A stretch of 64,000 bases of DNA, taken from the NCBI RefSeq assembly GCF_044758975.1, contig NZ_CP172862.1; one strand, 5' to 3'. A program made the position numbers and the translations under genes. The notes under the pieces are model-generated. The model was not told the DNA's origin. It ran no database searches and saw only the letters and a list, made by a program, of their open reading frames with translations. Every line of letters starts with the position of its first letter. Within the stretch, counting starts at the first letter, position 1. Below are positions 42,215-62,869 of this stretch, in pieces. The stretch is from Methylosinus sporium. Lineage in GTDB: Bacteria; Pseudomonadota; Alphaproteobacteria; Rhizobiales; Beijerinckiaceae.

Positions 42215-42230
42215 GACGTCACTCCACTCA

Positions 42231-43459: not shown

Positions 43460-43467
43460 CTTTCTTC

Positions 43468-44034
43468 TTAGAAAATCCGTTCGCGAACAGTGATCGTGTC
43501 TCCTGGCCGGACCGCCTGCAGCAAAGGCACGCGGCCGGTGACTGGAACGCCGCCGTAGTCGCGCGTCAAATCGACCTCGCCTTGATAGCCGCGCGGGTTG
43601 AAGCCGCCGGCTATGGCGATCGCCTTCTGCACGGTGAGACCCTCGACGAAAGGATATTGTCCGGCGCTCATCACTTCTCCGAGCACGAAGAAGGGACGAT
43701 ACGCCTCGACTTCCACCGAGACGCGAGGATCGCGGACGAATCCGTTGCGCAAACGTGCGGCGATTTCATGTTGCAGCGCCTGGGTCGTGAGGCCGGCCGC
43801 CGGAACGATGCCGATGAGCGGCATCGAAATATGGCCGGAGCCGTCGACCGTGTAGCTGTTGGAGATCGCATCCTGGCCGAAGACGATCACGCGAAGCCGA
43901 TCGCCTGCCGCGAGCGTGTAGGGCTCCTCGGTCGAGGAGGTCAAAAGCTCTGGAACATAGGCGCCCGGCAGGGCGCATCCCGACAATGTCGCGCACATCA
44001 TCAGCCAGAACAGGAGAAAGCCATATCTCGGCAT
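43468..44034 (-). CDS. Polysaccharide export lipoprotein (short Wza/ExoF-like, Poly_export + SLBB)
   Basis: Lipobox CATLSGC, poly-export motif LAAGDRLRVIVFG, SLBB-like C-terminus. Confidence 0.8.
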   Translation of the reverse strand: MPRYGFLLFWLMMCATLSGCALPGAYVPELLTSSTEEPYTLAAGDRLRVIVFGQDAISNSYTVDGSGHISMPLIGIVPAAGLTTQALQHEIAARLRNGFVRDPRVSVEVEAYRPFFVLGEVMSAGQYPFVEGLTVQKAIAIAGGFNPRGYQGEVDLTRDYGGVPVTGRVPLLQAVRPGDTITVRERIF

Positions 44035-44223
44035 TTAGAATCTCGGGCTCGAGGAACAGCTAAAGAACGTGTCCCGGGGAAATTTTTTAACGGTTCATGG
44101 TTAACAAAGCCTGATCGCCGCGGGCCGCTTCGTCGCCTCTCGAATGGCGCCGTCTCGCCGCGGTTAACCCCGCGGAAACCATAATCTCGGTACAAGGTCC
44201 GAGCGCCAATTGGAGTTCGCGAG
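44035..44223. promoter_or_regulatory. Divergent promoter region of the EPS locus with repeated GGTTAAC-containing sites
   Basis: TTAACGGTTCATGGTTAAC (44087-44105) and CGGTTAACCCCGCGGAAACCATAATC (~44161-44186) between the divergently transcribed export-lipoprotein and exoP-like genes. Confidence 0.35.
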
Positions 44224-46479
44224 ATGAGTTTCGGCCACCCTCACGATGACGCGGGGAGCCCCCGGGGCGAGACGGGACGCGCGATTTCGCGCGAGGTCCC
44301 GCAGACAGACGTCTCGACCGGCGAGATCGATCTCGGGCAGATCGCCGGCGCCTTGTCGCGCCGCCGCCGCATCGTGATCGGCGTGACGCTCGCCGCTTTT
44401 CTCGGCTCGCTCGTCTTCGTCAATGTCGTCAAGCCGCGCTACACGGCCGAGGCGCGCGTGCTGCTCGAGAATCAAGAGAGCTATCTGACCCGCGCCGACA
44501 AGGAGCGCTCCGACCCCACCGCGGCGCCCGACGCCGAAGCCGTGCAGAGCCAGATTCAAATGCTCACCTCGCGCGATCTCGCGCGGCGCGTGCTGAAATC
44601 GCTCGATCTGCAAGGCAATTCCGAATTCGATCCGATCGCCAACGGTCTCGGGCTCGGCACGAAGATCGGCGTGATGCTGGGACTGACGCGCGATCCTTCC
44701 AAGCTCGCGCCGGAAGAGCGCATGCTGGACGCCTATTTCGACAAGCTGCTCGTGCTGTCTCCGACCAAGACGCGCGTGCTGCAGATCGAATTTTCCGCGC
44801 GCGATCCCGATCTCGCGGCGCGCGCCGCCAACGCTATCGCTTCCTTCTATATAGACATTCAGCGTGAGGCGAAGCGCGAGAACGCTCGCGACGCCGCGCA
44901 ATCGCTGAGTCCGCTGGTCGCCGATCTGCGCGAGCGGCTCGGCCGGGCCGAGGCCAAGGTGGAGGCCTTCCGCTCGCGTTCCGGCCTCTTCGCCGGCACG
45001 AATAATATGACGATCGCCACGCAGCAGCTCGGCGACCTCACCAATCAGCTCTCCATTTCGCGCACGGCGCAGGCCGACGCCGAGGCGAAAGCGAAGCTGG
45101 TGCGCGACATGCTGCGGCAAAATCGCGTGGGAGAAATTCCCGACGTCGCCAATAATGAGATGATCCGCCGCATCGGCGAGCAGCGCGTGTCGCTGCGCGC
45201 TCAGCTCGCGCTCGAATCGCGCACGCTGCTGCCCGGCCATCCGCGCATAAAGGAGCTGCAGGCGCAGCTCGCCGATCTCGACGCCGATTGGCGCCGCGCC
45301 GCCGAGCGCACCGCGCGCACATTGGAGAATGAGGCGCATATCGCCTCCTCCCGCGTCGAGAATCTCTCTCGCGCCATGGACGAGCAGAAGCGCGTCGCCG
45401 GCGCCGCGGGCGCGGATGAGGTGCAGCTACGTGAGCTCGAGCGCGCCGCGCGCGTGCTCAAGGATCAGCTCGAGGCGGATTCGGCCAAATATCAGGAAGC
45501 GCTGGCGCGCGAGGGTCCGAAGGCTTCGCCCGCCGACGCGCGCGTCATTCAGCGCGCCGTCGCGCCGCCGATTCCCTCCTTCCCGAAAAAGGTTCCGATC
45601 ACCGCCTTTGCGACGATCGCCGCTTTTGTTCTCTCCGCGGGATCGATCGTCGCGATCGAGCTGCTGAGCGGCCGCGCGCGCGCTACGGCGCCGCTTCCGG
45701 TTCCGCGCCTCGAGGAGCGCGACGACGCGGAGCTGGAGGCGCCGCCCAAGGCGCGCATCGCCGCCGATCGGCGCGAGCCGACCTTTGTGGAGCCCGAAGA
45801 AGAAGAGGAGCAGGCGCCGCCTCCGAAGATGGCGAGCCTCGCCGCCGAGCCGCGGACGCGCCTGTCGCCCTCGCGCACGCCCAAGCTCGAAAGCAGATCG
45901 ACGCGCGCCTATCGATCGAGCGTCGTCGGAAAGATCGACGCGGCGCGCATGGCGACGCTCTCGGTGAAAGTTCTGCTGGTCGGCTGCGCCGACGCCGAGC
46001 ATAGTTTCGACAGCGCGGTGACATTGTCGCGCGCGCTGGCGCGGCGCGGCCTCGCCATTATCGTCGCCGCCGATGCGCAGGAGCGCGGCGAGCTCTATGA
46101 TCGGCTGATCCCCGATGTCGATCGCGCCCGGCCGCTCGGCCTCGCCGATCTTTCGAGCGGCGCCGCGACCTTCGCCGAGGCCATTCATCGCGACGCGGAT
46201 TCGCGTTTGCATGTGATGCCGGGCGGCCGCGCCGCGGCGGAATATGATCAGGACGCCGAGCCCGTGCTGGAAGCGCTGGCGCAGACCTATGATTTCATCG
46301 TCTTCGCCACGCGCGATTATGATCGCGCCATGTTCCTCGCGCCGTCCTTCGACATCGTTCTGGTGAGCGGCTCCGAGCGCGCGGCCGAGGCGGTCATCGA
46401 CGAGCTGGCGCAAGCGGGCGTCAGCGACGCCTTCCTGCTCGAGGACGAGACCGCTCCCGCCGACGCTTCGGCCGCGTAA
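44224..46479 (+). CDS. Polysaccharide co-polymerase / chain-length determinant protein (ExoP/Wzc/GumC family) with a degenerate C-terminal ATPase domain
   Basis: Wzz-like N-terminal region (TM + KPRYTAEARVLLENQESYL), long periplasmic coiled-coil, second TM. The C-terminal CpsD/Wzc-like fold lacks a canonical Walker A (VKVLLVGCADAEHSFDSAVTL). Confidence 0.8.
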   Translation: MSFGHPHDDAGSPRGETGRAISREVPQTDVSTGEIDLGQIAGALSRRRRIVIGVTLAAFLGSLVFVNVVKPRYTAEARVLLENQESYLTRADKERSDPTAAPDAEAVQSQIQMLTSRDLARRVLKSLDLQGNSEFDPIANGLGLGTKIGVMLGLTRDPSKLAPEERMLDAYFDKLLVLSPTKTRVLQIEFSARDPDLAARAANAIASFYIDIQREAKRENARDAAQSLSPLVADLRERLGRAEAKVEAFRSRSGLFAGTNNMTIATQQLGDLTNQLSISRTAQADAEAKAKLVRDMLRQNRVGEIPDVANNEMIRRIGEQRVSLRAQLALESRTLLPGHPRIKELQAQLADLDADWRRAAERTARTLENEAHIASSRVENLSRAMDEQKRVAGAAGADEVQLRELERAARVLKDQLEADSAKYQEALAREGPKASPADARVIQRAVAPPIPSFPKKVPITAFATIAAFVLSAGSIVAIELLSGRARATAPLPVPRLEERDDAELEAPPKARIAADRREPTFVEPEEEEEQAPPPKMASLAAEPRTRLSPSRTPKLESRSTRAYRSSVVGKIDAARMATLSVKVLLVGCADAEHSFDSAVTLSRALARRGLAIIVAADAQERGELYDRLIPDVDRARPLGLADLSSGAATFAEAIHRDADSRLHVMPGGRAAAEYDQDAEPVLEALAQTYDFIVFATRDYDRAMFLAPSFDIVLVSGSERAAEAVIDELAQAGVSDAFLLEDETAPADASAA

Positions 46480-46481
46480 AG

Positions 46482-47648
46482 TCAGCGCGCGAGTCGGCGC
46501 AGCTCGGTGAGCTTGGCGAGAAGACGCGGATTCTGCTTCACCGCGCGCTTGGCGCGGGTGAGCGCGGACAGCACGGGCGCCGCGAGCGCGCCGAGCGTTG
46601 TCGCCGGAATGAGCGTGTCGACGAGCGCGATCGTCTCGTCGCAGACGGCGTTCTTGTAGCGCGCCTCGCCGACGCCGAGATCGAAGCGCGTGACGCCGCG
46701 TGAGAGAAGATCGCGCAGCAGCGAATGCAGCAGCAGATCGCCGGGCGAGGAGCGCGCGATCTCCTCATCCGCCACGAAGGAATTGAGCATCGCCGAAAAG
46801 CGCCCGCGATGGGTGAAGCCCGCATAGGTCGCGATGATGCGCGCGTTCAGCGTCAGCGCATGGACCTCGAGCGCGCCGCCGCAGAGGCCGAGCACGAAAT
46901 CGCGCATGGCGCCGCTCGCAAAGGAGGGATCCTGCAAGCGCTCGGCCTTTTGCGCGAGCAGCGCCTCGAGAATTTCTGTCGCGCGCGCGCCCGTCGCGCC
47001 ATGCTCGAAGACGAGCGCGCCCATTTTCTCGAGCCGCGCCTGCTTCTTGCGCAGCTTCTTGCGCGTATCGGCGGAGAAGCGCGCGTCGAGCTCGCTCGCT
47101 GTCGCAGGAAGGCTCGTCCCATAGGCGAAGCTCGGGCTCGCGCTCGAGCCGGGCAGGGCGAGCGGATTGGCGACGCCCTCGAAAGTCTGCGGCTGATTGG
47201 CGAGGCGATAGAGATCGACGCCGCCGGCGCGCGCGGCGCGGCGCAGCAGAGCGCGAAGCGCGGCGGCGTCGAGACGCGCATCGGCGGCGAAGAGGCCGAG
47301 ATTGAAATTGCTCTCCTTGCCGCCGAGAAATTGCGCGATCCGCAGCGGGCCGAGACGCGATGTCGCCAGCGCGAGCAGTGCGAGAGGGCGCGCGTTCTCG
47401 CCATGCCTCGCGACGACGATCATCGGCGTGAGGCCGCGCGCGCGTCCGAATGTCTCGAACCAATCGCGCGCGAATCCGAAAGATTGATAGGCGCTGGCCG
47501 GCGCATTGGCGAACAGAACCTCCCAATCAGCGCGCGCCGCCTCGAAGGAGGCGAAGACGTCGAGCGAGATTGCGTCCACGGACGTCTCTGGTCGCGACAG
47601 ATCCATGAGGCTTTCTTCTGTGAGATTCTCTGCCCTTGCATTAACCAT
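46482..47648 (-). CDS. GNAT-fold acyltransferase of the CelD/BioF2-like (Acetyltransf_6) family
   Basis: ~390 aa with a C-terminal GNAT-like block (VHALTLNARIIATYAGFTHRGRFSAMLNSF). Common in EPS/cellulose loci. Confidence 0.55.
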   Translation of the reverse strand: MVNARAENLTEESLMDLSRPETSVDAISLDVFASFEAARADWEVLFANAPASAYQSFGFARDWFETFGRARGLTPMIVVARHGENARPLALLALATSRLGPLRIAQFLGGKESNFNLGLFAADARLDAAALRALLRRAARAGGVDLYRLANQPQTFEGVANPLALPGSSASPSFAYGTSLPATASELDARFSADTRKKLRKKQARLEKMGALVFEHGATGARATEILEALLAQKAERLQDPSFASGAMRDFVLGLCGGALEVHALTLNARIIATYAGFTHRGRFSAMLNSFVADEEIARSSPGDLLLHSLLRDLLSRGVTRFDLGVGEARYKNAVCDETIALVDTLIPATTLGALAAPVLSALTRAKRAVKQNPRLLAKLTELRRLAR

Positions 47649-47761
47649 ATCGTCGCCGCATTGCTGATGTTTGCGCTTCTTCGCGACACTAGCAAGGAAA
47701 GGTCAACGAGACCTCGAGATGGTGGGCGCAGAAAAAGAAATGCGCGGGGAGGCGCGGGGTT

Positions 47762-48817
47762 GTGACGAAATGGCGTCGAATGGCCATAGAGGCGGGCATG
47801 GAGTTCTTCCGCGCGAGCGGCGTGCACCGTCTGGCCGAGCCTTATACGCGCGGGCTGGGCGCGATATTGATGTTCCATCGCGTGCGTCCGCGGCTCGAGC
47901 AGGCCTTCGAGCCCAATCAGCCGCTCGAGATCACGCCGGAGTTTTTGAACGCGCTGATCGCGCGGCTGCGTCAGCGCGGCGTCGAGATCGTCTCGCTGGA
48001 GACCGCGCTCGCGCGGCTGCGCGCCGGCGAGGCCGGGACGCCCTTCGCGGTCCTCACCTTCGACGACGGCTATCGCGATTTTGTCGAGCATGCGCTGCCG
48101 GCGCTGGAGCGCCACAATGCGCCATTCACGCTCTATCTCACCGCAGGTTACGCCGACGCTTCGGCGCGGCTGTGGTGGGTGGAGCTGGAGGAGGCGATCC
48201 GGCGCCTCGATCGTCTCGACGTCATCGCCGGCGGCAAGCACATTTGCTGCGCGGCGGCGACGGCGGCGCAAAAGCGCGTCGCATTCGCCGAGGTCTATGC
48301 GCAGCTGCGCGCCGGCGACGAGGCGGAGCTGTTGCGCGTCGTCACCGCTCTCTCCGCCGAGGCGCGGATCGAGCCTCACGCGCTCACGCGGCGTCTTTGT
48401 CTCGGATGGAGCGAGCTGCGCGCGCTGGCCGATCACCCGCTGGCGACGATCGGCGCGCATTCGGTGACGCATGCGCGATTGGCCAAGGTGGATTGCGCGG
48501 CCGCCATCTATGAGATGGCCGAGAGCCGGCTGCGTCTAGAGTCCGAGCTGCAACGGCCGGTCCCGCATTTTTGCTATCCGGTCGGCGACCCGACCTCGGC
48601 GGCGCGACGGGAATTCGAGCTGGCGGCTCGGCTCGGCTTCGCCAGCGCCGTGACGACGCGTGCGGGCATGATCTTTCCCGAGCATCGCGAGCGTCTCATG
48701 TCGCTGCCGCGGCTCTCGGTGAATGGGCGTCATCAGTCGCTCGCCGCGCTGGACATTCTCCTGTCCGGCGCGCCTTTCGTTCTGATGAACGGAGGCCGCC
48801 GCGTGGCGGCGGCCTGA
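47762..48817 (+). CDS. Polysaccharide deacetylase (NodB-homology, carbohydrate esterase 4)
   Basis: LTFDDGYRDFVEHALPALERHNAPFTLYLTAGY contains the NodB TFDDG motif. Confidence 0.8.
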   Translation: MTKWRRMAIEAGMEFFRASGVHRLAEPYTRGLGAILMFHRVRPRLEQAFEPNQPLEITPEFLNALIARLRQRGVEIVSLETALARLRAGEAGTPFAVLTFDDGYRDFVEHALPALERHNAPFTLYLTAGYADASARLWWVELEEAIRRLDRLDVIAGGKHICCAAATAAQKRVAFAEVYAQLRAGDEAELLRVVTALSAEARIEPHALTRRLCLGWSELRALADHPLATIGAHSVTHARLAKVDCAAAIYEMAESRLRLESELQRPVPHFCYPVGDPTSAARREFELAARLGFASAVTTRAGMIFPEHRERLMSLPRLSVNGRHQSLAALDILLSGAPFVLMNGGRRVAAA

Positions 48818-54039: not shown

Positions 54040-55620
54040 TCAGAACGGGTGATATTGGAAGAGCCAGTTCTCCGACAACGCTTCATTCTTATGCGCGAGG
54101 AAGAGCCGCATCTCGACGGGATCATGTCCGTCGACGGTGAGATCGAATTGCGCGCGCCAATGTCCCGGCACGCCGTCGAACACGGCTTCCGTGTAAATGT
54201 AGGAGAAGCTTCCGCGCGAGGACCACAGCACCGGCTCCGGCTTCACGCCGAAGGGCAGACGCTCGAGCGGTCCGCCGAGAAATTCCACCATGAATTTGCG
54301 CACGCCTTTGGGGCGCGGCTTGCCGGGCTGTCCGCCATTGCCGAGCCGCGTCGCGACGCAGCGCGCGAGCGGCGTCGGATCGGGCTCGTCGGCGAGCCAA
54401 TGCAGGCGATAGGAGAAGTCGAATGACGCGCCGGGAACGGCGGGCTTCGCCGGCACCCACATGGCGACGATGTTATCGTGGATCTCGTCGTCGGTCGGAA
54501 TCTCGACGAGCTGAATCGTTCCCTTGCCCCAATCGCCTTTGGGCTCGATCCACACGCTCGGGCGGCGATCGTAGAAAACGCCGTCGAGATAATGATCGAA
54601 ATTGCGGTCGCGCTGCAGTAGGCCGAAGCCTTTCGGATTTTCGTCTCCGAAAGCGGAAGCCATCACGCGATCGGGATTGTTGAGCGGACGCCACAGACGC
54701 TCGCCGCGGCCGGTCCACATTGCGAGACCATCGGAATCATGCACCTCCGGCCGCCAATCGACGGCGGTCGGCTTCTTGGTCTCGGAGAACCAATACATGG
54801 AGGTGAGCGGCGCTATGCCGAAACGCTCGAAGGCGCCGCGCAAATGCAGCGAGCAGTCGACGTCCATCACGACTCCCTTGCCGCGCTTCGCCAAGATGCG
54901 AAACGCGCCGACGATGGAGGGACCTTCGAGCAGGAGATGCAGCGGCAGCCCGTCTTCCGTCTCCGGCCCGATATAGACATTGGTGAAATCTGGAAACTCC
55001 TCCGGCCGGCCGGAGACCCAAGTGTCGAGCGCGACGCCGCGCGCCGAGAGCCCATATTGGCGCAATTCGCCGATGGCGCGGAAATAGGAGGCGCCGAGAA
55101 AAGCCGCCCAGTCATTCTTGCGCCAGTCGAGCGGCCCGTCCTTGGGCTCTTGAATGCGAAAGCCTGCGAAGCCCGCGCCCGGCGGCAGCTGGCGGGCGAT
55201 CGAATCGTCCGGCATGTCGAAATATTTGGAGTTGTAGAGCACCTCGCGCGCCTGGCCGTTCTCGACCGCATAGAAGCGGACGGCCTTTTTGAAGAACATG
55301 CCGAGGTGGAAGAACTCGACCGGGAAACGGCCGGCGCCCGTGGTGAGCGCGTAATTCGTGTCGTAGCTGATCTTGCCCCAGGCCTCATAGTCGATCTTGG
55401 AGGTGATCTGCGGATCGGGCTGGCTCGGCGGGCGGAAGGGCTCCGCTATGCGGCGGCGGGCGGTCTCCTTCAGCCGCTCGAATGAGAAGGGCTCGGCTGG
55501 GCCGAGGTCGAGACGGCCGGGGACGGGCTGGGCGTCGGCCTCATTCGCGCTCATTGCGCCGAGCGCGCCTGTAGCGGCCGCGGCCTTGAGGAAGGAGCGG
55601 CGATCCGTGTCGTCGATCAT
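54040..55620 (-). CDS. opgD: Periplasmic glucan biosynthesis protein, OpgG/OpgD (MdoG/MdoD) family, Tat-exported
   Basis: Twin-arginine signal MIDDTDRRSFLKAAAATGALGA. Full-length MdoG-family pattern (~520 aa). Confidence 0.8.
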   Translation of the reverse strand: MIDDTDRRSFLKAAAATGALGAMSANEADAQPVPGRLDLGPAEPFSFERLKETARRRIAEPFRPPSQPDPQITSKIDYEAWGKISYDTNYALTTGAGRFPVEFFHLGMFFKKAVRFYAVENGQAREVLYNSKYFDMPDDSIARQLPPGAGFAGFRIQEPKDGPLDWRKNDWAAFLGASYFRAIGELRQYGLSARGVALDTWVSGRPEEFPDFTNVYIGPETEDGLPLHLLLEGPSIVGAFRILAKRGKGVVMDVDCSLHLRGAFERFGIAPLTSMYWFSETKKPTAVDWRPEVHDSDGLAMWTGRGERLWRPLNNPDRVMASAFGDENPKGFGLLQRDRNFDHYLDGVFYDRRPSVWIEPKGDWGKGTIQLVEIPTDDEIHDNIVAMWVPAKPAVPGASFDFSYRLHWLADEPDPTPLARCVATRLGNGGQPGKPRPKGVRKFMVEFLGGPLERLPFGVKPEPVLWSSRGSFSYIYTEAVFDGVPGHWRAQFDLTVDGHDPVEMRLFLAHKNEALSENWLFQYHPF

Positions 55621-55674: not shown

Positions 55675-55905
55675 TCAGCGGATAGGCTCGTGGCGGACGG
55701 CTGTGCGCATGAAGAAATACAGGCCGACCAGACCGGCCAGCGCGAAGACGATCTCGAAAATGCGGCTGATGGCCGGATCGAGCTGAAACAGGCCGCCGAG
55801 CGCCCAGCCGGCGGCCCAGGAGGTCGCGACGAGCTCCGTGCCGACCAGGATCGCGACGGCGACCAGAGTCGACAAATGCACCAGGTTCAACGGCTTCTTG
55901 CTCAT
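55675..55905 (-). CDS. Small two-TM membrane protein (76 aa), hypothetical
   Basis: Two hydrophobic helices (LVHLSTLVAVAILVGTELV; IFEIVFALAGLVGLYFFM). Confidence 0.4.
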   Translation of the reverse strand: MSKKPLNLVHLSTLVAVAILVGTELVATSWAAGWALGGLFQLDPAISRIFEIVFALAGLVGLYFFMRTAVRHEPIR

Positions 55906-56112
55906 CGGGCGAAGGACTCCGCGCTCATCGTCCAGAGGAACCTGCTATACGATCGGCCGGCCCGGCGCAAGTCGGCGCCCCCAAAGGCCGCGGAACGCCT
56001 CTTGCGATGCGCCGCGCGCCGCTGGTATTCTGTAATTGGGGGCGACGCGGGCGCTTTTTTTTGTTTTTTTCGTGCGCTGAAGCAAAGTCGCTGTTTTTTC
56101 AGGGGCAGGGCT

Positions 56113-57921
56113 ATGGGTGGAGTCGTCGAGCGCGTCGTCATTCGACATTTGTCGGGGTCGAAGGCCAATCAGATCGAGCAGCTTCCGATCGGCGATCTGA
56201 AAGAGATCACCATCGGCCGCGATCCGACATCGAAAATCGCTTTCGATCCCACCATAGACGGCGTCGTCAGCCGGCAGCACGCCGTCATCCGCATCGAGGG
56301 CGAAGGCGACGATCTGAAGTTCAAGCTGATCGACCTCGGCTCCAGCAATGGCACTTTCCTCAACGGCCAGCGCATCTCGCAAGACGCCGAGCTGCTGCCC
56401 GAGGACAAGATCGAGCTCGGCGGCGCCAAGGGGCCGAAATTCACCTTCGATCTGCAGCCCCGGCCGGCCAGCTTCGCGGCGCGCACGCGCGTCATCGGCA
56501 TAGACGATTCCGCCGCGACCCGGCTGATCGAAACGGCGCAGACGGCGGCCTCCACCGCTGTCGCCGAGATCGGCTCGACGTCGACTGAGGCGCCTCCGCA
56601 CAAGGCGGGCGTCGGGCAGGAGACGGTGCAGCGGCTGATCGTCGAGGAGCGCCGATCGGCGGGCCGCACCTGGGGCGCCGTGGCGGCCGGTCTGCTCGCC
56701 TTCATCGCGCTCGGCGGCGGCGCCGTCTATTGGAAGCAGATCAAGGACGACGAGCGCCATCAGGCCGAGCTCGCCGATGTGAAGGCGGACGCTAAGCACG
56801 CCGATCAGCGCAGCGCCGCGCTGCAGGGCGAGGTGAAGACCAATCTCATCGGCATGACGCCGCTCGACATCTACAACAAATATTCCAACGCCACCGCGCG
56901 CGTCGATCTGCGCTGGCGTCTCTTCGACACGCAGACCGGCAAGCCGATCTTCCATCAGACCTTCCGGTTCGGAAAGGACACGCTGCCCGCTTATGTGCGC
57001 CTGCCCAATGGCAAGGTCGTGCGCTGGCTGACGCTCGAGGACGATCAGCGCTCCAATCTGCAGATCGCCGGCGCCGGGCGCGGCTCCGGCTTCGTCATCA
57101 GCGAGCAGGGCTATCTGCTCACCAACAAGCATGTCGCCGCCGGCTGGAAGGTGACTTACGATTCCCCGCGTCTCGGCTATGTGTTCGATCTCGGCGGCGG
57201 CCCCGGCGCCAAAAACGCGAAGCTGCGGAAGCCTATCGGCGTCATCGATCTCGAATCCGAGGATTACGCCGATCTCAACATGTGGGTGCCGGAAGCGGGC
57301 GGCGTCATTTTTCCGTCGAGCGTCGCCATTCCGATCGGCCGCAACAACATCCCCGACATGACGCGCAATGAGCAGCGCACTTTCGAGGGCCGCAATGAGC
57401 AGCTCGAGGTGCGTTTTCCCGGCGCGCGGCTCGGCGTCAACGCCTCGCTGGTGCGCGCTTCGGCGGATTCCGACGCCGCGCTCATCAAGATCGACTCGCC
57501 GCAGCTGCTCGACAAGGTCGAGCTCGCCGACGACGATCAGGTGACGATCGGCGAGAAGGTCATCGTGCTCGGCTATCCGGGCATTTCGGTGGAGAATGTC
57601 CAGCGTCAGGTGACGGTGGAGAACGGCCTGACGCGCGTTCAGAACGAGGTCATTCCCGAGGCGACGGTGACGGATGGCATCGTCTCCAAGCTCTCCACCG
57701 GCTATAAGGAGAAGGACGGCGTCACGCTGACCAGCGCCGGCGAGCGCATTCAGCTCAGCGTGCTGGCCACCGGCTCCGGCAATAGCGGCGGGCCGGTGTT
57801 CAACGCCAATGGCAAGGTCATCGGCCTGTTCACCTACAGCCGCAGCCGCGGCGACGCGCGCGTGACGCTCGCCGTGCCGATCAAATTCGGGCGCGACCTG
57901 CTGCGCGCGCAGCGCAACTGA
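56113..57921 (+). CDS. FHA-domain protein fused via a TM helix to a trypsin-like (S1) serine protease domain
   Basis: N-terminal FHA signature (ITIGRDP...VSRQHAVIRIEG...LIDLGSSNGTFLNGQRI). TM AVAAGLLAFIALGGGAVYW. C-terminal catalytic triad context TNKHV (His), SDAALIKID (Asp), GNSGGPVFN (Ser). Confidence 0.8.
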   Translation: MGGVVERVVIRHLSGSKANQIEQLPIGDLKEITIGRDPTSKIAFDPTIDGVVSRQHAVIRIEGEGDDLKFKLIDLGSSNGTFLNGQRISQDAELLPEDKIELGGAKGPKFTFDLQPRPASFAARTRVIGIDDSAATRLIETAQTAASTAVAEIGSTSTEAPPHKAGVGQETVQRLIVEERRSAGRTWGAVAAGLLAFIALGGGAVYWKQIKDDERHQAELADVKADAKHADQRSAALQGEVKTNLIGMTPLDIYNKYSNATARVDLRWRLFDTQTGKPIFHQTFRFGKDTLPAYVRLPNGKVVRWLTLEDDQRSNLQIAGAGRGSGFVISEQGYLLTNKHVAAGWKVTYDSPRLGYVFDLGGGPGAKNAKLRKPIGVIDLESEDYADLNMWVPEAGGVIFPSSVAIPIGRNNIPDMTRNEQRTFEGRNEQLEVRFPGARLGVNASLVRASADSDAALIKIDSPQLLDKVELADDDQVTIGEKVIVLGYPGISVENVQRQVTVENGLTRVQNEVIPEATVTDGIVSKLSTGYKEKDGVTLTSAGERIQLSVLATGSGNSGGPVFNANGKVIGLFTYSRSRGDARVTLAVPIKFGRDLLRAQRN

Positions 57922-57936
57922 TCGAAGGTCGGGGAA

Positions 57937-58806
57937 ATGGCGACGGGGCGCGAGGCTCCTTTGGGCGCTTTCCGCGTCGTCGGCGCGATGCGGACCGATG
58001 TCGGCCGCGTACGCTCCTCCAATGAGGACAGCGTCGCCTATGTCGCGCCGGCTCCCGATGCGCCGGAGGCGGGAATGGGCTATCTCGCCATCGTCGCCGA
58101 TGGCATGGGCGGCCACGCCGCTGGCGAGGTGGCGAGCGCTCTGGCGACGGAAGTCGTGCGCCGCGTGTTCTACTCGCTCGACGTCGAGCCGCCGCGCGCG
58201 TTGAAGGCGGCCTTCGAGGCCGCCAATCGCGCCATTTTCGAGCACAGCGCGCGCGAGCCCGAATGCAAGGGCATGGGCACGACCTGCACCGCCGTCGTCA
58301 TTCGCGATGGCAGACTTTGGCTCGCGCACGTCGGCGACAGCCGCGCTTATATCTTGCGCGGCGGCGAGGCGACGCAGCTCTCCGACGATCAGACGCTGCA
58401 TGCGCAATTGGTGCGTGAGGGCGTGATGACGCAGGAGGAGGCCGAGCGCAGCCCCGGCGGCAATGTCATTCTGCAGGCGGTCGGAACGCGCAAGGAGGTC
58501 GCGCCGACCATTTGGTCGGAAGGACTGCCGCTCGCGATCGGCGACACGATCATTCTGTGCTCGGACGGGCTCTCCAATCTCGTTTCGAAGGCGCAGCTCG
58601 TCGCCGCGATCGCCGATCGCTCGCCGCAGGACTCTTGCCATTTGCTGGTGGAGGCCGCTCTCGCGGCGGGCGGCCACGACAATATTTCCGTCGGCGTGTT
58701 TCAGATCGTCGCGCCGCCGCCGGGCGCGCGCGATCAGGCCGCGACGCAGAAGATTTCCGTCGTCGCGGATGTCGCGCCGCCGACGCGCGTCATCGTCGTT
58801 CGATAG
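57937..58806 (+). CDS. PP2C-family Ser/Thr protein phosphatase
   Basis: RTDVGRVRSSNEDS and VADGMGGHAAGEVAS metal-binding motifs. Starts 15 nt after the FHA-protease stop. Confidence 0.85.
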   Translation: MATGREAPLGAFRVVGAMRTDVGRVRSSNEDSVAYVAPAPDAPEAGMGYLAIVADGMGGHAAGEVASALATEVVRRVFYSLDVEPPRALKAAFEAANRAIFEHSAREPECKGMGTTCTAVVIRDGRLWLAHVGDSRAYILRGGEATQLSDDQTLHAQLVREGVMTQEEAERSPGGNVILQAVGTRKEVAPTIWSEGLPLAIGDTIILCSDGLSNLVSKAQLVAAIADRSPQDSCHLLVEAALAAGGHDNISVGVFQIVAPPPGARDQAATQKISVVADVAPPTRVIVVR

Positions 58807-58818
58807 AGGCATGAGGTC

Positions 58819-60645
58819 ATGAGCGACCAGAAAATGATCGGCCATTACCGCATCGTCGAGCTGCTCGGCGCCGGGGCCATGGGCAAGGTGCATGTCGCCT
58901 TCGACACATTCATCGAGCGCGAGGTGGCGATCAAATCGCTGCGCCCCGAGCTGACGCAGGATCCTGAATTCGTCGGGCGCTTTAAGGCCGAGGCGCAGAG
59001 TCTCGCGCGCTTGAACCACCCCAATATCACCACGCTCTACTCGCTGCTGCCCGAAGGCCGCGACCTCTATATGGTGATGGAGCTGGTGCGCGGACGCGCG
59101 CTCGACGACGTTCTGCGCGAGCGCGGCGGGCCGATCGGCGTGAAGGAATGTCTCGCCATCATCTCGCAGGCCGCCGACGGCGTCGCCTATGCGCATCAGA
59201 TGGGCGTGATCCATCGCGACATAAAGCCGTCCAATCTGATGATCGGCAATGACGGCCGCGTGAAGATCATGGATTTCGGCATCGCCCGCGTGCAGGGCAG
59301 CGTGCGCATGACGCGCGCCGGCACGGCGATCGGCACGCCGCTCTATATGGCGCCGGAGCAGCGACGCGGCAGCGAGGGCGACGAGCGCAGCGATCTCTAT
59401 GCGCTCGCCGTCGTTCTCTATGAGATTCTCTCCGGCGCGGCGCCCTTCGCAGGGCTCGACGAGGTGGAGCTGCTGCAAGCGCAGATCGGCAGAGATCCGC
59501 CGCCGCTGGTGCCGCGCATTCCCGGCGTGACGCCGGAGCTGGAAGCCGCGATCATGAAGGCGCTCTCGAAACGGCCGGAGCAGCGCTATCCGTCGATCCG
59601 CGCCTTCAGCGACGCCATAGGCGCGACTGCGCTGCGCATCGACGCCACATCCATCGTGCAGAGCCCCGCGCATCTTCTCGACAAGGCGACGCAGACGAGC
59701 GCGAGCGCCGGCTCCGCCGCGTCTCTGCCATCCGTCGCTCTGGCGGTCGCCAAAAGCCGTTCGACATCGCTGGTCCGGCGCTTCAAATCGCTGCATCCGG
59801 CCGTGCAGGGCGTGTCGGTTGCTGTCGTCGCCTTTGCAGCCGTCGCGCCGCTGCTGTTCGGCGGCGACGGCGACAGCGTCAATAAGAAGCGCGAGCTCGA
59901 CAAGGCCGAACGCGAGCGGCGCGCGGCCGTCGAGCTCGAGAGCGAGCGTCGTCCGACGACGAAGACTTTGGATTATGGCCAGACCGGCGAGATCAAGCCG
60001 GCGCGAAGCGAGATCGACCGTCCGGCCGTTCTGACGAATGATGCGCCGCCGGCCAAGCCCAAATGCAATGAGGGCTTCAGCATCGCCGATTGCCAGCCTT
60101 CGACTGTCCCCGGCCAGAAGACCGCCGCCGTGGAAAAGGCGTCGCTTGCGGCGCCGGCGACGTTGGCCGACATGCGCAAGGCCCTCAAGGACAAGGACTA
60201 TCTCAAGGCTGTCAGTTTGGCGGAGGCGCTCGCTCAATCTAGCGACAAGACCGATCAGCGAGAGGCGCAATTTCAGCTCGGCTGGGCTGCGCTCAAAGGA
60301 ATGGGACGGCCGCAGAATCTCGATGCGGCGCTGAATTGGATGAAGCTCTCAGCGGCGCAGGGCTATCCCGAGGCGCAATTCGTGCTCGGCATAATGTATC
60401 AGAACGGCGATGGCACGGGCGGCCAGGAGAATCCGAGCGAAACCGTCCGCTGGTTCACCGAGGCCGCCAACCAGGGTCATCCCCGCGCGCAATTCCTGCT
60501 CGGCAAAATTTACGAGCGCGGCGTGCCGAATATTTTGAAGAGGGATTATCGAAGGGCGGGCGATTTCTATCGCCTCGCCAAGGAGCAGAGTTTTCCGGGC
60601 GCCGCCGAGGCGCTGGACAGCTTGCGTAAGGCCGGCCGCTACTGA
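58819..60645 (+). CDS. Hanks-type Ser/Thr protein kinase with a TM segment and periplasmic Sel1-like repeats
   Basis: GAGAMGKV glycine loop, VAIK, HRDIKPSNLMI catalytic loop, DFGIAR, APE. TM GVSVAVVAFAAVAPLLFGG. C-terminal Sel1/TPR-like repeats (AAQGYPEAQFVLGIMYQNGDG; ANQGHPRAQFLLGKIYERG). Confidence 0.85.
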   Translation: MSDQKMIGHYRIVELLGAGAMGKVHVAFDTFIEREVAIKSLRPELTQDPEFVGRFKAEAQSLARLNHPNITTLYSLLPEGRDLYMVMELVRGRALDDVLRERGGPIGVKECLAIISQAADGVAYAHQMGVIHRDIKPSNLMIGNDGRVKIMDFGIARVQGSVRMTRAGTAIGTPLYMAPEQRRGSEGDERSDLYALAVVLYEILSGAAPFAGLDEVELLQAQIGRDPPPLVPRIPGVTPELEAAIMKALSKRPEQRYPSIRAFSDAIGATALRIDATSIVQSPAHLLDKATQTSASAGSAASLPSVALAVAKSRSTSLVRRFKSLHPAVQGVSVAVVAFAAVAPLLFGGDGDSVNKKRELDKAERERRAAVELESERRPTTKTLDYGQTGEIKPARSEIDRPAVLTNDAPPAKPKCNEGFSIADCQPSTVPGQKTAAVEKASLAAPATLADMRKALKDKDYLKAVSLAEALAQSSDKTDQREAQFQLGWAALKGMGRPQNLDAALNWMKLSAAQGYPEAQFVLGIMYQNGDGTGGQENPSETVRWFTEAANQGHPRAQFLLGKIYERGVPNILKRDYRRAGDFYRLAKEQSFPGAAEALDSLRKAGRY

Positions 60646-60664: not shown

Positions 60665-61063
60665 TCAATAATCCAGCTTGCCGAGCCCCGTCGCGCTGCT
60701 AGCGGCGCTTCCGCCGTTTCCACTCTTGTCGCTGCCGCCGCTCGCATGGCCGCCGCCCTCATCTCGATGGCTGCGTCGCGATGCGTGTCGCGAGCCGCCG
60801 TCACTGCGATGGACGTGCTGGCGCGGCGGAGGCCGACGCGTGCGATAGGGATAGCCGCCGCCATTGCCGCCGCCACGCATCGCCCGACGCGCCAGCTCGG
60901 CCGCAATTCCGAAAAACTCGGCTTGAGCGCGAGCGGGCCCGGCATCGAGCGCGGCGATCGGCAAAGCGAAAAGCCCCAACAATAGAGCGCGTCGGGAGAG
61001 CTTCGGCGAAGCCGCAGTATCGGATGCGTCGCCGATTAAATCGCCCTTATGTTCGTCGATCAT
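60665..61063 (-). CDS. Tat-signal secreted Gly/His/Arg-rich low-complexity protein
   Basis: SRRALLLGLFALPIAALDAGPARAQA signal, then GGGNGGGYPY...HRDEGGGHASGGSDKSGNGGS, ending GLGKLDY. Confidence 0.45.
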   Translation of the reverse strand: MIDEHKGDLIGDASDTAASPKLSRRALLLGLFALPIAALDAGPARAQAEFFGIAAELARRAMRGGGNGGGYPYRTRRPPPRQHVHRSDGGSRHASRRSHRDEGGGHASGGSDKSGNGGSAASSATGLGKLDY

Positions 61064-62075: not shown

Positions 62076-62759
62076 CTAGAAGTGATAATTGAGGCCGCCG
62101 CGGATCGTCGACGTATCGATATTCGTCTGCAGCGAATTGGCCGAGAAATCGAAATAGCGATCGCCGCCGATAGAGGTGAAGAGATATTCCGCCTTGGCCG
62201 AGAGATTGGGCGCGAGGCCGAATTCGATGCCCGCGCCGAGCGCCCAGCCGGCGGTGAATTTCGACTGCTGGCCGTAGAAGCCCTGGAAGGCGTTGTTCAC
62301 GCTCGCCGTCGTGTTGCTGCCGGCGAAGCCGCCGGTGACGAACAGCAGAGCGCGATCGATGGTGACGCCGGCGCGCGCGCGAATGGTGAGCGTGTTGTCG
62401 ACGGAGCCATTGCCGGAGACGCCGGCGAAAGGCGAGCGTCCGTCCTTCGAGCTGTTGAAGTCGAAGTCGCCTTCGACGCCGACGAGGAAGTTGGGCGCGA
62501 AGGTGAGATTATAGCCGGCCGTGCCGCCGACGACCCACCCATTGGGATTGCCGAGCAGATTGCTGCTGCCGTTCTGGAACGAGCCCAGCGCATAGCCGCC
62601 GTTGATGCCGATATAGAAGCCCTGCCAGGTGAAGGCGGGCGGCGGGCTGTAGTAGTCGGCCGCGGGGGCGGAGCGCCGCGGCAGATCGGCGGCGAGGGCG
62701 GAGGCGCCGGCGCAGAGCAGAGCGGGCGCCAGCAGCGCAGGAAGCAGCATAGGTCTCAT
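62076..62759 (-). CDS. Outer-membrane beta-barrel protein of the Omp25/Omp31/RopB family
   Basis: Signal peptide MRPMLLPALLAPALLCAGASALA, alternating amphipathic beta-strands, aromatic C-terminus GGLNYHF. Confidence 0.8.
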   Translation of the reverse strand: MRPMLLPALLAPALLCAGASALAADLPRRSAPAADYYSPPPAFTWQGFYIGINGGYALGSFQNGSSNLLGNPNGWVVGGTAGYNLTFAPNFLVGVEGDFDFNSSKDGRSPFAGVSGNGSVDNTLTIRARAGVTIDRALLFVTGGFAGSNTTASVNNAFQGFYGQQSKFTAGWALGAGIEFGLAPNLSAKAEYLFTSIGGDRYFDFSANSLQTNIDTSTIRGGLNYHF

Positions 62760-62869
62760 CGAACTCGACTCCACATTCGCGCGCCTTAAGGGCCTTCGGC
62801 TCGCGGTCACAAAACTCGGCGCAGGCGAGGGGCAAGGCCCAGCCAGAGCTCAGTCGAATTAAAATCGTT

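What the first reader, a model, noticed from the sequence alone, without database searches (positions are those of the whole stretch)
56113..60645. Three-gene operon: FHA-TM-trypsin protease, PP2C phosphatase and a Sel1-repeat receptor Ser/Thr kinase
The three genes are separated by only 15 and 12 nt, so they form one transcription unit. FHA + PP2C + Hanks kinase is a known eukaryote-like phospho-Thr signalling triad (for example the T6SS Fha/PppA/PpkA module). Here the FHA domain is fused through a TM helix to a periplasmic trypsin-like protease with an intact His/Asp/Ser triad context, and the kinase carries periplasmic Sel1 repeats instead of a vWA or PASTA sensor. This predicts a trans-envelope circuit in which kinase-dependent pThr recognition by the FHA domain could gate a periplasmic protease. 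I do not recognise this architecture as described. No T6SS or cell-division genes are nearby to explain it.
Basis: partly seen in the sequence, partly recalled or inferred. Interest (0 to 1): 0.72.

Follow-up and report, generated by a model that had tools for sequence, protein, structure and literature searches.

The report
Kinase-controlled membrane-anchored periplasmic protease module
Three tightly packed genes encode a membrane protease with a phosphothreonine-reading domain inside the cell and an HtrA-type protease outside it, plus its own kinase and phosphatase; the same cassette recurs across many bacterial phyla and I found no paper on it, so it is probably an unexplored way for bacteria to switch on proteolysis in the cell envelope.

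Summary
Gene 1 (56113-57921) has an FHA domain, one TM helix and a periplasmic HtrA-fold serine protease. It has an intact H340/D454/S558 triad and no PDZ domain. Gene 2 (57937-58806) is a PP2C phosphatase. Gene 3 (58819-60645) is a Hanks kinase with a TM helix and Sel1 repeats. The gaps are 15 and 12 nt, and the neighbours are divergent upstream and convergent downstream.

- The cassette is not a local oddity. In 54 of 56 related loci with enough sequence, PP2C and one or two Hanks kinases directly follow the FHA-protease. These loci span Alpha-, Beta- and Gammaproteobacteria, Acidobacteriota, Bacteroidota, Rhodothermota and Abditibacteriota. Nothing else is conserved around it.
- The Sel1 sensor is specific to Rhizobiales.
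- The disordered cytoplasmic linker of the protease protein carries three almost invariant threonines (T125, T136, T171).

Best reading: the kinase and phosphatase write and erase pThr marks that the FHA domain reads, and this controls assembly or activity of the periplasmic protease. This is inferred, not shown. No curated family or paper describing it was found. I class it as a new variant of known kinds, with interest about 0.6.

The parts
56113..57921 (+). g1: 602-aa FHA-TM-HtrA-type protease (the output protein of the module)
   Evidence: ORF and translation. Pfam FHA and Trypsin_2. 98% identical to a Methylosinus protein; full-length homologues are listed.
56113..56466 (+). Cytoplasmic FHA domain (residues 1-118; Pfam core 32-103) with pThr-pocket residues R36, S53, R54, H56, N79
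   Evidence: Pfam E 7e-19. AF2 pLDDT is about 90 over this stretch. In the 78-sequence alignment R36 is 78/78, R54 75/78, H56 78/78 and N79 77/78. PDB sequence matches include GarA/Rv1827 FHA.
56467..56661 (+). Disordered cytoplasmic linker (residues 119-183) with three conserved Thr islands: T125 (56485-56487, 'RTR'), T136 (56518-56520, 'ATR'), T171 (56623-56625, 'GxxTV')
   Evidence: pLDDT is below 50 for residues 123-168. Mean column conservation is 0.30 outside the motifs, against T125 0.96, T136 1.00, G168 0.99 and T171 1.00.
56671..56727 (+). Single TM helix (residues 187-205), followed by a poorly conserved helical stalk (206-249)
   Evidence: Hydropathy 1.84 over 19 residues. The AF2 model has a long helix over 184-245. 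Stalk conservation is 0.19.
56860..57912 (+). Periplasmic HtrA-fold (S1C) protease domain without PDZ. Triad: H340 (57130-57132), D454 (57472-57474), S558 (57784-57786). About 80 extra residues lie between the His and Asp motifs.
57937..58806 (+). g2: 289-aa cytoplasmic PP2C Ser/Thr phosphatase
   Evidence: Pfam PP2C_2 and PP2C. NCBIfam Stp1/IreP-type 226 bits, cut-off 230. Metal-binding motifs are present. No TM segment.
58819..60645 (+). g3: 608-aa receptor Hanks Ser/Thr kinase. Kinase domain 58846-59589, TM 59803-59859, periplasmic Sel1-repeat region about 60145-60624.
   Evidence: Pfam Pkinase E 4e-49 and Sel1 E 1.6e-20, three stretches. TM 329-347. Catalytic motifs and the activation loop 'RMT165R'.
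60665..61063 (-). Possible lineage-specific accessory gene: 132-aa protein with a twin-arginine-type signal peptide and a Gly/His/Arg/Tyr-rich tail, convergent with g3
   Evidence: No Pfam hit. Homologues sit directly next to the Sel1-type kinase gene in L001, L003, L005, L006, L008, L009, L012 and (weakly) L068, while no other window flank gene is conserved there. Its role is unknown.
55906..56112 (+). 207-nt divergent intergenic region upstream of g1 (presumed promoter and 5' leader) with two T-runs
   Evidence: Sequence. No sigma-70 consensus on the + strand, and one terminator-like hairpin at 56038-56058. No Rfam match. Folding is no better than shuffles, z -0.29.

Best explanation
This is a self-contained phosphothreonine signalling cassette. 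Its dedicated output is a membrane-anchored, PDZ-less HtrA-type protease that acts in the periplasm. The proposed steps are:
1. The receptor Hanks kinase is switched on by an envelope or periplasmic cue, sensed through an ectodomain that differs between lineages (Sel1 repeats here).
2. The kinase phosphorylates the invariant threonines (T125, T136, possibly T171) in the disordered cytoplasmic linker of the protease protein.
3. The N-terminal FHA domain reads these marks, most likely on a neighbouring protomer, and/or reads the kinase's phosphorylated activation loop.
4. This drives or stabilises assembly or repositioning of protease protomers. HtrA-type proteases work as trimers, so assembly would switch periplasmic proteolysis on.
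5. The cytoplasmic PP2C erases the marks and resets the system.

Shown here: the domains, the catalytic and pThr-pocket residues, the conserved threonines in a disordered linker, and the cross-phylum gene linkage.
Inferred: the topology, who phosphorylates whom, the direction of signalling (inside-out), the oligomerisation step, and the still unknown substrate.
For: - Domain architecture and intact active sites in all three proteins.
- Gene linkage: 54 of 56 loci with at least 4.5 kb downstream have PP2C plus one or two Hanks kinases directly after the FHA-protease on the same strand (30 K-P-K, 22 P-K, 1 P-K-K, 1 split). They span Alpha-, Beta- and Gammaproteobacteria, Acidobacteriota, Bacteroidota, Rhodothermota and Abditibacteriota. 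No other gene family is shared by more than 15 of 80 loci.
- In the 78-sequence alignment (window plus 77 loci), the protease triad is kept in 77-78 of 78 and FHA residues R36, H56 and N79 in 77-78 of 78. Both catalysis and pThr binding are therefore under selection.
- The FHA-to-TM linker is predicted disordered and poorly conserved (0.30). Yet it holds T125 (0.96), T136 (1.00) and T171 (1.00), with Arg at +1 of the first two. This is the pattern of short phospho-acceptor motifs.
- The partner kinase's activation loop is R-[ML]-T-[RQK] in most loci, which resembles the linker motifs 'RTR' and 'ATR'.
- Only the catalytic domain of the kinase is conserved across phyla. The juxtamembrane region and ectodomain are not. 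The constant partner of the FHA domain must therefore be the kinase core or the protease protein's own linker.
- The fold is HtrA/DegS/PepD-type.
- Precedents for an FHA domain fused to an effector that reads pThr in the same polypeptide: Rv1747 with PknF (PMC3138270) and Bdellovibrio DgcB (PMC6733907).
Against: - There is no experimental or transcript evidence.
- No phosphosite data exist. The conserved threonines could be structural or bind something else. T171 lies in a predicted juxtamembrane helix.
- The +3 positions after T125 and T136 are variable, so there is no clear FHA specificity signature.
- The AF2 model does not dock the linker on the FHA domain.
- The substrate is unknown, and nothing in the neighbourhood suggests one.
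- How a cytoplasmic event would be transmitted through a single TM helix and a poorly conserved stalk is not established.
- One locus (L014, Reyranella) has the protease gene without adjacent partners.
Confidence: 0.5

Rival explanations
1. Feedback or tethering model. The FHA domain only docks the protease onto the active (phosphorylated) kinase. The protease then cleaves the kinase's own ectodomain or its periplasmic ligand, for example the co-located small Gly/His-rich secreted protein in Rhizobiales. In this model proteolysis tunes or terminates kinase signalling rather than being the output.
For: - FHA domains commonly bind phosphorylated kinases (established knowledge for PknB and GarA).
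- The conserved activation-loop Thr is a possible docking site.
- The two proteins would sit side by side in the membrane.
- In Rhizobiales a Sel1-repeat periplasmic regulator, ExoR, is controlled by proteolysis (PMC10659215, PMC3460628).
- A small exported protein is conserved next to the Sel1-type kinases.
Against: - Kinase ectodomains are unrelated between lineages, while the protease domain is conserved (0.48 mean column conservation). A conserved protease acting on non-conserved targets is less parsimonious.
- This model does not explain the invariant linker threonines in the protease protein.
Confidence: 0.2
2. Outside-in sensor model. The periplasmic HtrA-like domain is the sensor, detecting unfolded envelope proteins as DegS does. 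Its state is relayed to the cytoplasm, where the FHA domain sequesters or releases the kinase or other pThr proteins. The output would then be cytoplasmic phosphorylation, not proteolysis.
For: - HtrA-family proteases are allosterically activated by peptides (established knowledge for DegS and DegP).
- In 11 loci an ECF sigma factor plus kinase pair lies just upstream.
Against: - The catalytic triad is kept in 77-78 of 78 sequences, which argues for real catalysis.
- There is no PDZ or other recognisable peptide-sensing domain.
- The kinases carry their own ectodomains, which makes a second sensor redundant.
Confidence: 0.12
3. Conflict or anti-phage defence cassette. The kinase and phosphatase pair senses infection and releases a protease effector.
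For: - The cassette is autonomous with non-conserved flanks, even between Methylosinus and Methylocystis.
- The kinase domain scores highly against PADLOC PD-T4-6 and mad6 models (302 bits). The protease has weak hits to the protease parts of defence proteins.
- Kinase-kinase-phosphatase modules can act in defence (PMC11341870).
Against: - The PADLOC kinase hits cover only the generic Hanks catalytic domain.
- The protease is extracytoplasmic, which is unlike abortive-infection effectors.
- There is no hit in 72,556 plasmid or 50,697 phage records.
- No integrase or defence genes are conserved nearby.
- Identity falls with taxonomic distance: 91-98% in Methylosinus, about 60% in Methylocystis, 45-57% in other Rhizobiales, 38% in Cupriavidus and 30-35% in Acidobacteriota and Bacteroidota. 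This is as expected for mainly vertical descent.
- KKP kinases are soluble and fused to CSD or FHA domains, unlike these receptor kinases.
Confidence: 0.06

Closest known systems
Mycobacterium tuberculosis Rv1747 ABC transporter with its operon kinase PknF (PMC3138270)
   Same: A membrane effector is fused to cytoplasmic FHA domain(s) and encoded in one operon with a Hanks kinase. The kinase phosphorylates threonines in the effector's own disordered linker, the FHA domains bind them, and phosphorylation activates the effector.
   Different: In Rv1747 the effector is an ABC exporter, not a protease. It has two FHA domains, and no phosphatase is in the operon. It is found in Actinobacteria only. 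Here the regulated domain lies on the other side of the membrane from the FHA domain.
DegS / AlgW (membrane-anchored HtrA-family site-1 proteases) and Mtb PepD/HtrA
   Different: There is no PDZ domain, which is the regulatory element of DegS. About 80 extra residues lie between the His and Asp motifs, and there is an extra N-terminal beta subdomain. A 118-residue cytoplasmic FHA domain replaces a short tail. NCBIfam HtrA, DegS and DegP models score 27-80 bits against cut-offs of 408-756.
T6SS threonine-phosphorylation pathway (PpkA / PppA / Fha1)
   Same: Both have the triad of receptor Hanks kinase, PP2C phosphatase and FHA protein encoded together, with pThr-dependent assembly of an envelope machine.
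   Different: Fha1 is a soluble scaffold with no TM helix and no protease. PpkA has a vWA ectodomain. The T6SS system sits inside T6SS clusters, whereas no T6SS gene is near this cassette in the window or conserved in the 80 related loci.
Bdellovibrio DgcB (FHA-GGDEF) (PMC6733907)
   Same: An FHA domain fused to an enzyme is activated by a phosphopeptide derived from the enzyme's own tail.
   Different: DgcB is a soluble cytoplasmic enzyme with no adjacent kinase and phosphatase pair described in that abstract, and no membrane crossing.
Actinobacterial fhaA-fhaB-pstP-...-pknA-pknB cluster and Stp1/Stk1 pairs
   Same: PP2C and a receptor Hanks kinase are co-transcribed with FHA proteins. The PP2C here is Stp1-like (226 bits).
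   Different: Those kinases carry PASTA sensors and control cell-wall synthesis and division genes in the same cluster. The FHA proteins are not proteases. The window kinase has no PASTA domain.
Pf-prophage KKP kinase-kinase-phosphatase module (PMC11341870)
   Same: Two Hanks kinases plus a PP2C occur in one cassette, as in the K-P-K variant seen in 30 loci, and an FHA domain is involved.
   Different: KKP kinases are soluble and fused to CSD or FHA domains. The module is prophage-borne with toxin-antitoxin-like behaviour and no protease. The cassette here is chromosomal and has membrane kinases.

Membership tests
HtrA/DegP/DegS family (MEROPS S1C) sensu stricto | Chymotrypsin-fold protease domain with a His-Asp-Ser triad of HtrA type | tested here: met
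HtrA/DegP/DegS family (MEROPS S1C) sensu stricto | At least one C-terminal PDZ domain | tested here: not met
   No PDZ hit in Pfam at E<=0.1. The protein ends about 40 residues after the catalytic Ser.
HtrA/DegP/DegS family (MEROPS S1C) sensu stricto | Score above the curated family cut-offs (NCBIfam degP_htrA_DO, DegS, DegQ, HtrA) | tested here: not met
   The best score is 80.4 bits against a cut-off of 416.2. DegS scores 35.3 against 423.
HtrA/DegP/DegS family (MEROPS S1C) sensu stricto | Trimeric (or higher) assembly as the active unit | not testable with these tools
   Only single-chain structure prediction was available.
T6SS threonine phosphorylation pathway (PpkA/PppA/Fha1) | Location in, or co-occurrence with, a T6SS gene cluster | tested here: not met
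   No T6SS genes were found among the annotated window ORFs. No such family is conserved in the 80 loci.
T6SS threonine phosphorylation pathway (PpkA/PppA/Fha1) | Soluble Fha scaffold, and a PpkA kinase with a periplasmic vWA domain | tested here: not met
   The FHA protein has a TM helix plus a protease. The kinase ectodomain is Sel1, with no vWA hit.
FHA domain (Pfam PF00498), pThr-binding competent | Pfam score above the gathering threshold and the conserved pocket residues (Gly-Arg, Ser-x-x-His, Asn-Gly) | tested here: met
   68.4 bits against 20.7. G35-R36, S53-R54-x-H56 and N79-G80 are present.
FHA domain (Pfam PF00498), pThr-binding competent | Actual binding of a phosphothreonine peptide | not testable with these tools
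   This needs ITC or a pull-down with phosphopeptides.
Hanks-type Ser/Thr kinase, catalytically active | Gly-loop, VAIK Lys, HRD, DFG and APE motifs | tested here: met
   Positions 17, 39, 132, 152 and 178. Pkinase 167.8 bits.
PknB/Stk1 PASTA kinase family | Extracellular PASTA repeats; NCBIfam NF033483 cut-off 450 | tested here: not met
   303.9 bits, over the kinase domain only (residues 7-272). The ectodomain is Sel1.
Stp1/IreP PP2C phosphatase (NCBIfam NF033484) | Full-length match above the cut-off of 230 bits | tested here: inconclusive
   226 bits over model positions 2-231 of 232, just below the cut-off. The PP2C metal-binding motifs are present.
PD-T4-6 / MADS / KKP kinase-based defence systems | Match beyond the generic kinase domain, and the characteristic partner genes or domains | tested here: not met
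   PADLOC hits cover only residues about 1-340 (kinase). There are no mad genes, no CSD or FHA fusion on the kinases, and no phage or plasmid copies.
FHA-TM-HtrA protease + PP2C + Hanks kinase cassette (the uncharacterised family defined here) | N-terminal FHA, conserved Thr linker, one TM helix and a PDZ-less S1C domain, followed on the same strand by PP2C and at least one membrane Hanks kinase | tested here: met
   The window matches all of these features. 54 of 56 informative loci share the layout. The family has 353 clusters at 50% identity with E<=1e-30.

The most novel reading that the evidence does not exclude
A widespread inside-out signalling device: a cytoplasmic phosphothreonine code, written by a receptor Hanks kinase, erased by a PP2C and read by an FHA domain, directly gates an HtrA-type protease on the other side of the inner membrane. 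I found no described example of Ser/Thr-kinase-controlled periplasmic proteolysis by a single fused polypeptide, nor of this way of regulating a PDZ-less HtrA-type protease. It would be conserved from Alphaproteobacteria to Acidobacteriota and Bacteroidota.
Probability: 0.35. Interest if true: 0.8.

Novelty: new variant of a known kind. Interest (0 to 1): 0.6.

Why it matters
Hanks kinases, PP2C phosphatases and FHA readers are common in bacteria, but few have a defined, dedicated output. HtrA-type proteases are central to envelope quality control and stress signalling, and their known regulation runs through PDZ domains in the periplasm. This cassette joins the two worlds in one polypeptide. 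It is conserved with its kinase and phosphatase across several phyla, including methanotrophs, Accumulibacter and abundant soil Acidobacteriota. If the inferred logic holds, it defines a new route for regulated proteolysis in the envelope and a clean one-kinase, one-substrate model for bacterial pThr signalling. The predictions are immediately testable: three invariant threonines, the FHA pocket and the catalytic Ser. If the logic fails, the cassette is still a well-delimited family with no assigned function that deserves a curated family definition.

Tried and rejected
- Literature: six full-text searches combining FHA, trypsin-like, HtrA, peptidase S1, PP2C, kinase, Methylosinus and Trypsin_2 found no paper on an FHA-protease fusion. 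The first attempt failed on syntax. The eLife conflict-systems paper mentions FHA and trypsin-like domains only in unrelated contexts.
- Curated families: NCBIfam has no model that the protease protein passes.
- Defence reading: the PADLOC hits are generic kinase-domain hits. There are no plasmid or phage copies.
- Exact-sequence look-up of g1 in the assembly index: not on record. The source strain is therefore only inferred to be Methylosinus, from 98% identity.
- AFDB50 fold search: the library was unavailable.
- RNA element in the T-rich leader: there is no Rfam hit in the whole window, and folding is no better than shuffles. The sigma-70 scan found no + strand promoter.
- My guess that the short second kinase (K2) ends in a PEGA domain was not supported by Pfam. 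I dropped it.
- Conserved juxtamembrane pThr docking motif in the kinase: none found across phyla.
- Conserved flanking genes that might name a substrate: none. Only lineage-restricted neighbours were found.

Full report
**1. Observation**

The spacers are 15 and 12 nt, each with a purine-rich ribosome-binding-like tract. Upstream lies a divergent 76-aa membrane-protein gene (55675-55905, -), and beyond it OpgD/MdoG (54040-55620, -). Downstream lies a convergent 132-aa gene (60665-61063, -). A three-gene transcription unit is therefore the natural reading. No transcript data were available to prove it.

**2. Anatomy**

- g1 (602 aa) has a Pfam FHA domain (residues 32-103, E 7e-19) and Trypsin_2 (E 6e-20). 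It has one hydrophobic segment, at 187-205.
- g2 (289 aa) is a PP2C phosphatase. The Stp1-type NCBIfam model scores 226 bits against a cut-off of 230. The metal-binding motifs are present.
- g3 (608 aa) is a Hanks kinase with all catalytic motifs. It has a TM helix at 329-347 and three Sel1 stretches in the C-terminal 160 residues (E 1.6e-20).
- The FHA domain and the kinase domain must both be cytoplasmic, because they need ATP and pThr. Each is N-terminal to a single TM helix. I therefore infer that the protease domain and the Sel1 repeats are periplasmic. This topology was not measured.

**3. What kind of protease**

- A profile search of PDB sequences aligns the three catalytic motifs (TNKH340, D454, GNS558GGP) with HtrA-family proteases such as MucD (DegP-like), HtrA and HtrA1. 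It aligns the N-terminus with GarA-type FHA domains.
- An AlphaFold2 model was built from 58 sequences, with mean pLDDT 77.9. It is confident for residues 1-118 (FHA fold) and 250-600. It is below 50 for residues 123-168. It shows a long helix over 184-245.
- Foldseek against PDB gives DegP, DegQ, HtrA1, AlgW and DegS protease domains, with target TM-scores of 0.70-0.75 at 15-18% identity.
- There is no PDZ domain.
- About 114 residues separate the His and Asp motifs, against about 30 in HtrA proteins.
- No NCBIfam HtrA-type model comes near its cut-off.
- The domain is therefore HtrA-fold, but the protein is not a regular HtrA-family member.

**4. Distribution and linkage**

- The best database relative is 98% identical and comes from Methylosinus sp. 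R-45379. The top 120 hits are almost all full-length FHA plus Trypsin_2 proteins; two are shorter and lack the FHA call. They come from Methylosinus, Methylocystis, Methylocella, Xanthobacter and other Rhizobiales, and carry generic names only.
- An exhaustive HMMER scan of 1.84 billion cluster representatives finds 353 clusters with E<=1e-30.
The 80 loci kept cover the following groups:
  - Alphaproteobacteria, including Acetobacteraceae, Reyranella and Stellaceae;
  - Cupriavidus, Accumulibacter and Competibacteraceae;
  - Acidobacteriota;
  - Bacteroidota (Spirosoma, Saprospiraceae, Ferruginibacter);
  - Rhodothermota, Abditibacteriota and a Desulfobacteraceae MAG.
- I searched the six-frame ORFs of these loci with the window's g2 and g3. 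Of the 56 loci with at least 4.5 kb downstream of the protease gene, 54 have PP2C and kinase directly after it on the same strand. The layouts are 22 as P-K (as in the window), 30 as K-P-K, one P-K-K and one with split ORFs.
- The two exceptions are L014 (no partners nearby) and L009 (partners adjacent but inverted).
- All-against-all clustering of every ORF in the loci finds no further family shared by more than 15 loci, apart from overlapping or antisense ORFs.
- The extra kinase (K2) of the K-P-K form has active-site motifs, a TM helix and a short C-terminal domain with no Pfam match.
- Sel1-like C-termini occur only in 10 Rhizobiales loci. Across phyla only the kinase catalytic domain is conserved.
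- No window flank gene is conserved, even in Methylocystis. The one exception is the small convergent gene described in section 9.
- The protease protein has no match in 72,556 plasmid or 50,697 phage records.

**5. Conserved residues**

All figures below come from the 78-sequence alignment across phyla (window plus 77 loci).

- The triad is kept: H340 in 78/78, D454 in 77/78 and S558 in 77/78.
- The FHA pocket is kept: R36 in 78/78, R54 in 75/78, H56 in 78/78 and N79 in 77/78.
- The linker between the FHA domain and the TM helix is otherwise the least conserved cytoplasmic part, at 0.30 mean column conservation. It nevertheless contains three islands: T125 (0.96) followed by R126 (0.82); T136 (1.00) followed by R137 (0.79); and G168 (0.99)-x-x-T171 (1.00)-V.
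- The first two islands lie in the region that AlphaFold leaves disordered.
- The partner kinase's activation loop reads R-[ML]-T-[RQK] in most loci. This resembles 'RTR' and 'ATR'.

**6. Mechanism**

I commit to the following model at about 0.5 confidence. The kinase and phosphatase pair writes and erases pThr on the protease protein's linker. The FHA domain reads these marks, in trans between protomers and/or on the kinase activation loop. This controls assembly or positioning of the periplasmic HtrA-type domains and so controls proteolysis.

- The basis is the cross-phylum gene linkage, selection on both the pThr pocket and the catalytic triad, and conserved threonines in a disordered linker.
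- There are two experimentally studied precedents in which an effector-fused FHA domain binds pThr in the same polypeptide. These are Rv1747 with PknF (PMC3138270) and DgcB (PMC6733907).
- That HtrA proteases act as trimers is established knowledge. That trimerisation is the regulated step here is my inference.
- T125 lies only about 7 residues after the FHA fold, so it is unlikely to reach its own pocket. This favours trans binding, and is also inference.
- The substrate is unknown.

**7. Rivals**

- (a) The FHA domain merely tethers the protease to the active kinase, so that the protease trims the kinase ectodomain or its ligand. This is plausible for the Sel1 version, by analogy with proteolytic control of the Sel1 protein ExoR in Rhizobiales (PMC10659215, PMC3460628). 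It fits poorly with non-conserved ectodomains.
- (b) The protease domain is a sensor and the output is cytoplasmic. RsgI9 is a precedent for an S1C sensor domain. The invariant triad and the kinases' own ectodomains argue against this.
- (c) A defence cassette. The PADLOC kinase hits are generic, the effector is extracytoplasmic, there are no phage or plasmid copies, and identity tracks taxonomy.
- (d) Chance adjacency is excluded by the 54 of 56 linkage.

**8. Comparison and novelty**

- In logic, the cassette works like Rv1747 with PknF, and like the T6SS PpkA/PppA/Fha triad.
- In fold, its output resembles DegS and PepD.
- It fails defining features of each family: no PDZ, no T6SS context, no PASTA, no ABC domain (see the membership table).
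- I found no curated family and no paper for the fusion or the cassette.
- I class it as a new variant of known kinds: known parts in an undescribed, strongly conserved combination that places reader and effector on opposite sides of the membrane.
- The finding is not peculiar to this genome, and the Sel1 sensor is a lineage-specific detail.

**9. Seen in passing**

- The convergent 132-aa gene (60665-61063) encodes a protein with a twin-arginine-type signal and a Gly/His/Arg/Tyr-rich tail. It recurs right next to the Sel1-type kinase gene in eight Rhizobiales loci. It may be a fourth, lineage-specific component.
- The N-terminal motif H12-x-S-G-S-K-A-N-Q-I-E22 of the FHA domain is as conserved as the active sites, and is unexplained.

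Noticed in passing
window 60665-61063 (-); L001 11465-11779 (-); L009 3996-4400 (+); L005 6651-7016 (-); L012 11661-12134 (-); L008 8046-8549 (-); L006 4362-4925 (-); L003 11593-11949 (-): A small exported protein has a twin-arginine-type signal (SRRxLL...AxAQ) and a Gly/His/Arg/Tyr-rich low-complexity tail, with no Pfam family. It sits directly beside the Sel1-type kinase gene in eight Rhizobiales loci, although no other flank gene is conserved. It may be a ligand or substrate of this lineage's version of the cassette.
   Followed up: partly
window 56113-56180 (g1 residues 10-22): The motif R-H-L-S-G-S-K-A-N-Q-I-E at the very start of the FHA domain is nearly invariant across phyla. It is as conserved as the catalytic triad, but it is not part of the canonical pThr pocket. 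Its function is unknown.
   Followed up: partly
L020-L080 (e.g. L046 8702-10000, L034 8934-10268, L022 8812-10029): In Acidobacteriota, Bacteroidota, Abditibacteriota, Accumulibacter and Competibacteraceae, the cassette has a second, shorter membrane Hanks kinase between the protease gene and the PP2C gene (K-P-K order, 30 loci). It has active-site motifs and a roughly 90-aa C-terminal domain with no Pfam match.
   Followed up: partly
L024, L027, L040, L044, L050, L059, L064, L066, L067, L072, L075: An ECF-type sigma factor gene, in most of these loci beside a further large Ser/Thr kinase gene, lies within a few kb of the cassette (upstream of the protease gene in most) in 11 loci. Most are Acidobacteriota or Rhodothermales.
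   Followed up: no
L046 12786-13475, L048, L049, L053, L062, L069, L074; window 62076-62810 (-): In seven Bacteroidota and Rhodothermota loci a roughly 230-aa ORF directly follows the last kinase gene. From its sequence it looks like an outer-membrane beta-barrel protein, but it was not run against Pfam. The window has an OMP_b-brl protein 1.4 kb downstream on the opposite strand. That protein showed no detectable sequence similarity to any ORF in the 80 loci.
   Followed up: no
window 55675-55905 (-): An unannotatable 76-aa protein with two hydrophobic segments lies between OpgD/MdoG and the operon, divergent from g1. It has no Pfam hit and no homologue in the related loci.
   Followed up: partly
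window 56038-56100 (+): Two long T-runs and a GC-rich hairpin (terminator-like) lie in the 5' leader of g1, although no + strand gene ends there. There is no Rfam match, and folding is no better than shuffled sequence.
   Followed up: yes
window 40697-48817: This is an exopolysaccharide-type gene cluster, identified from the translations only. It includes a polyprenyl glycosylphosphotransferase, glycosyltransferases, a Wza-like export protein, a GumC/ExoP-like chain-length protein and a polysaccharide deacetylase. Together with OpgD at 54040-55620, it makes the neighbourhood envelope-related, but none of it is conserved next to the cassette elsewhere.
   Followed up: partly
window 22755-24179 (-): A 474-aa protein has two PAN/Apple domain stretches (Pfam PAN_1, E 2.5e-16). 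This is an unusual domain for a bacterial chromosome region that otherwise holds housekeeping genes (BamA, citrate synthase, GltX, ComEC).
   Followed up: no
L024, L038, L061, L063: MAGs labelled Actinomycetota, Heliobacteriaceae or Clostridia carry cassettes that, for L038, L061 and L063, have the K-P-K layout typical of the Acidobacteriota loci, and for L024 closely mirror the Blastocatellia locus L027. The labels may reflect mis-binning rather than true monoderm carriers.
   Followed up: no
L014 (Reyranella) and L009 (Methylocella): These are exceptions to the layout. L014 has the FHA-protease gene without an adjacent PP2C or kinase. In L009 the PP2C and kinase are adjacent but on the opposite strand, with the small exported-protein gene in between.
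   Followed up: no
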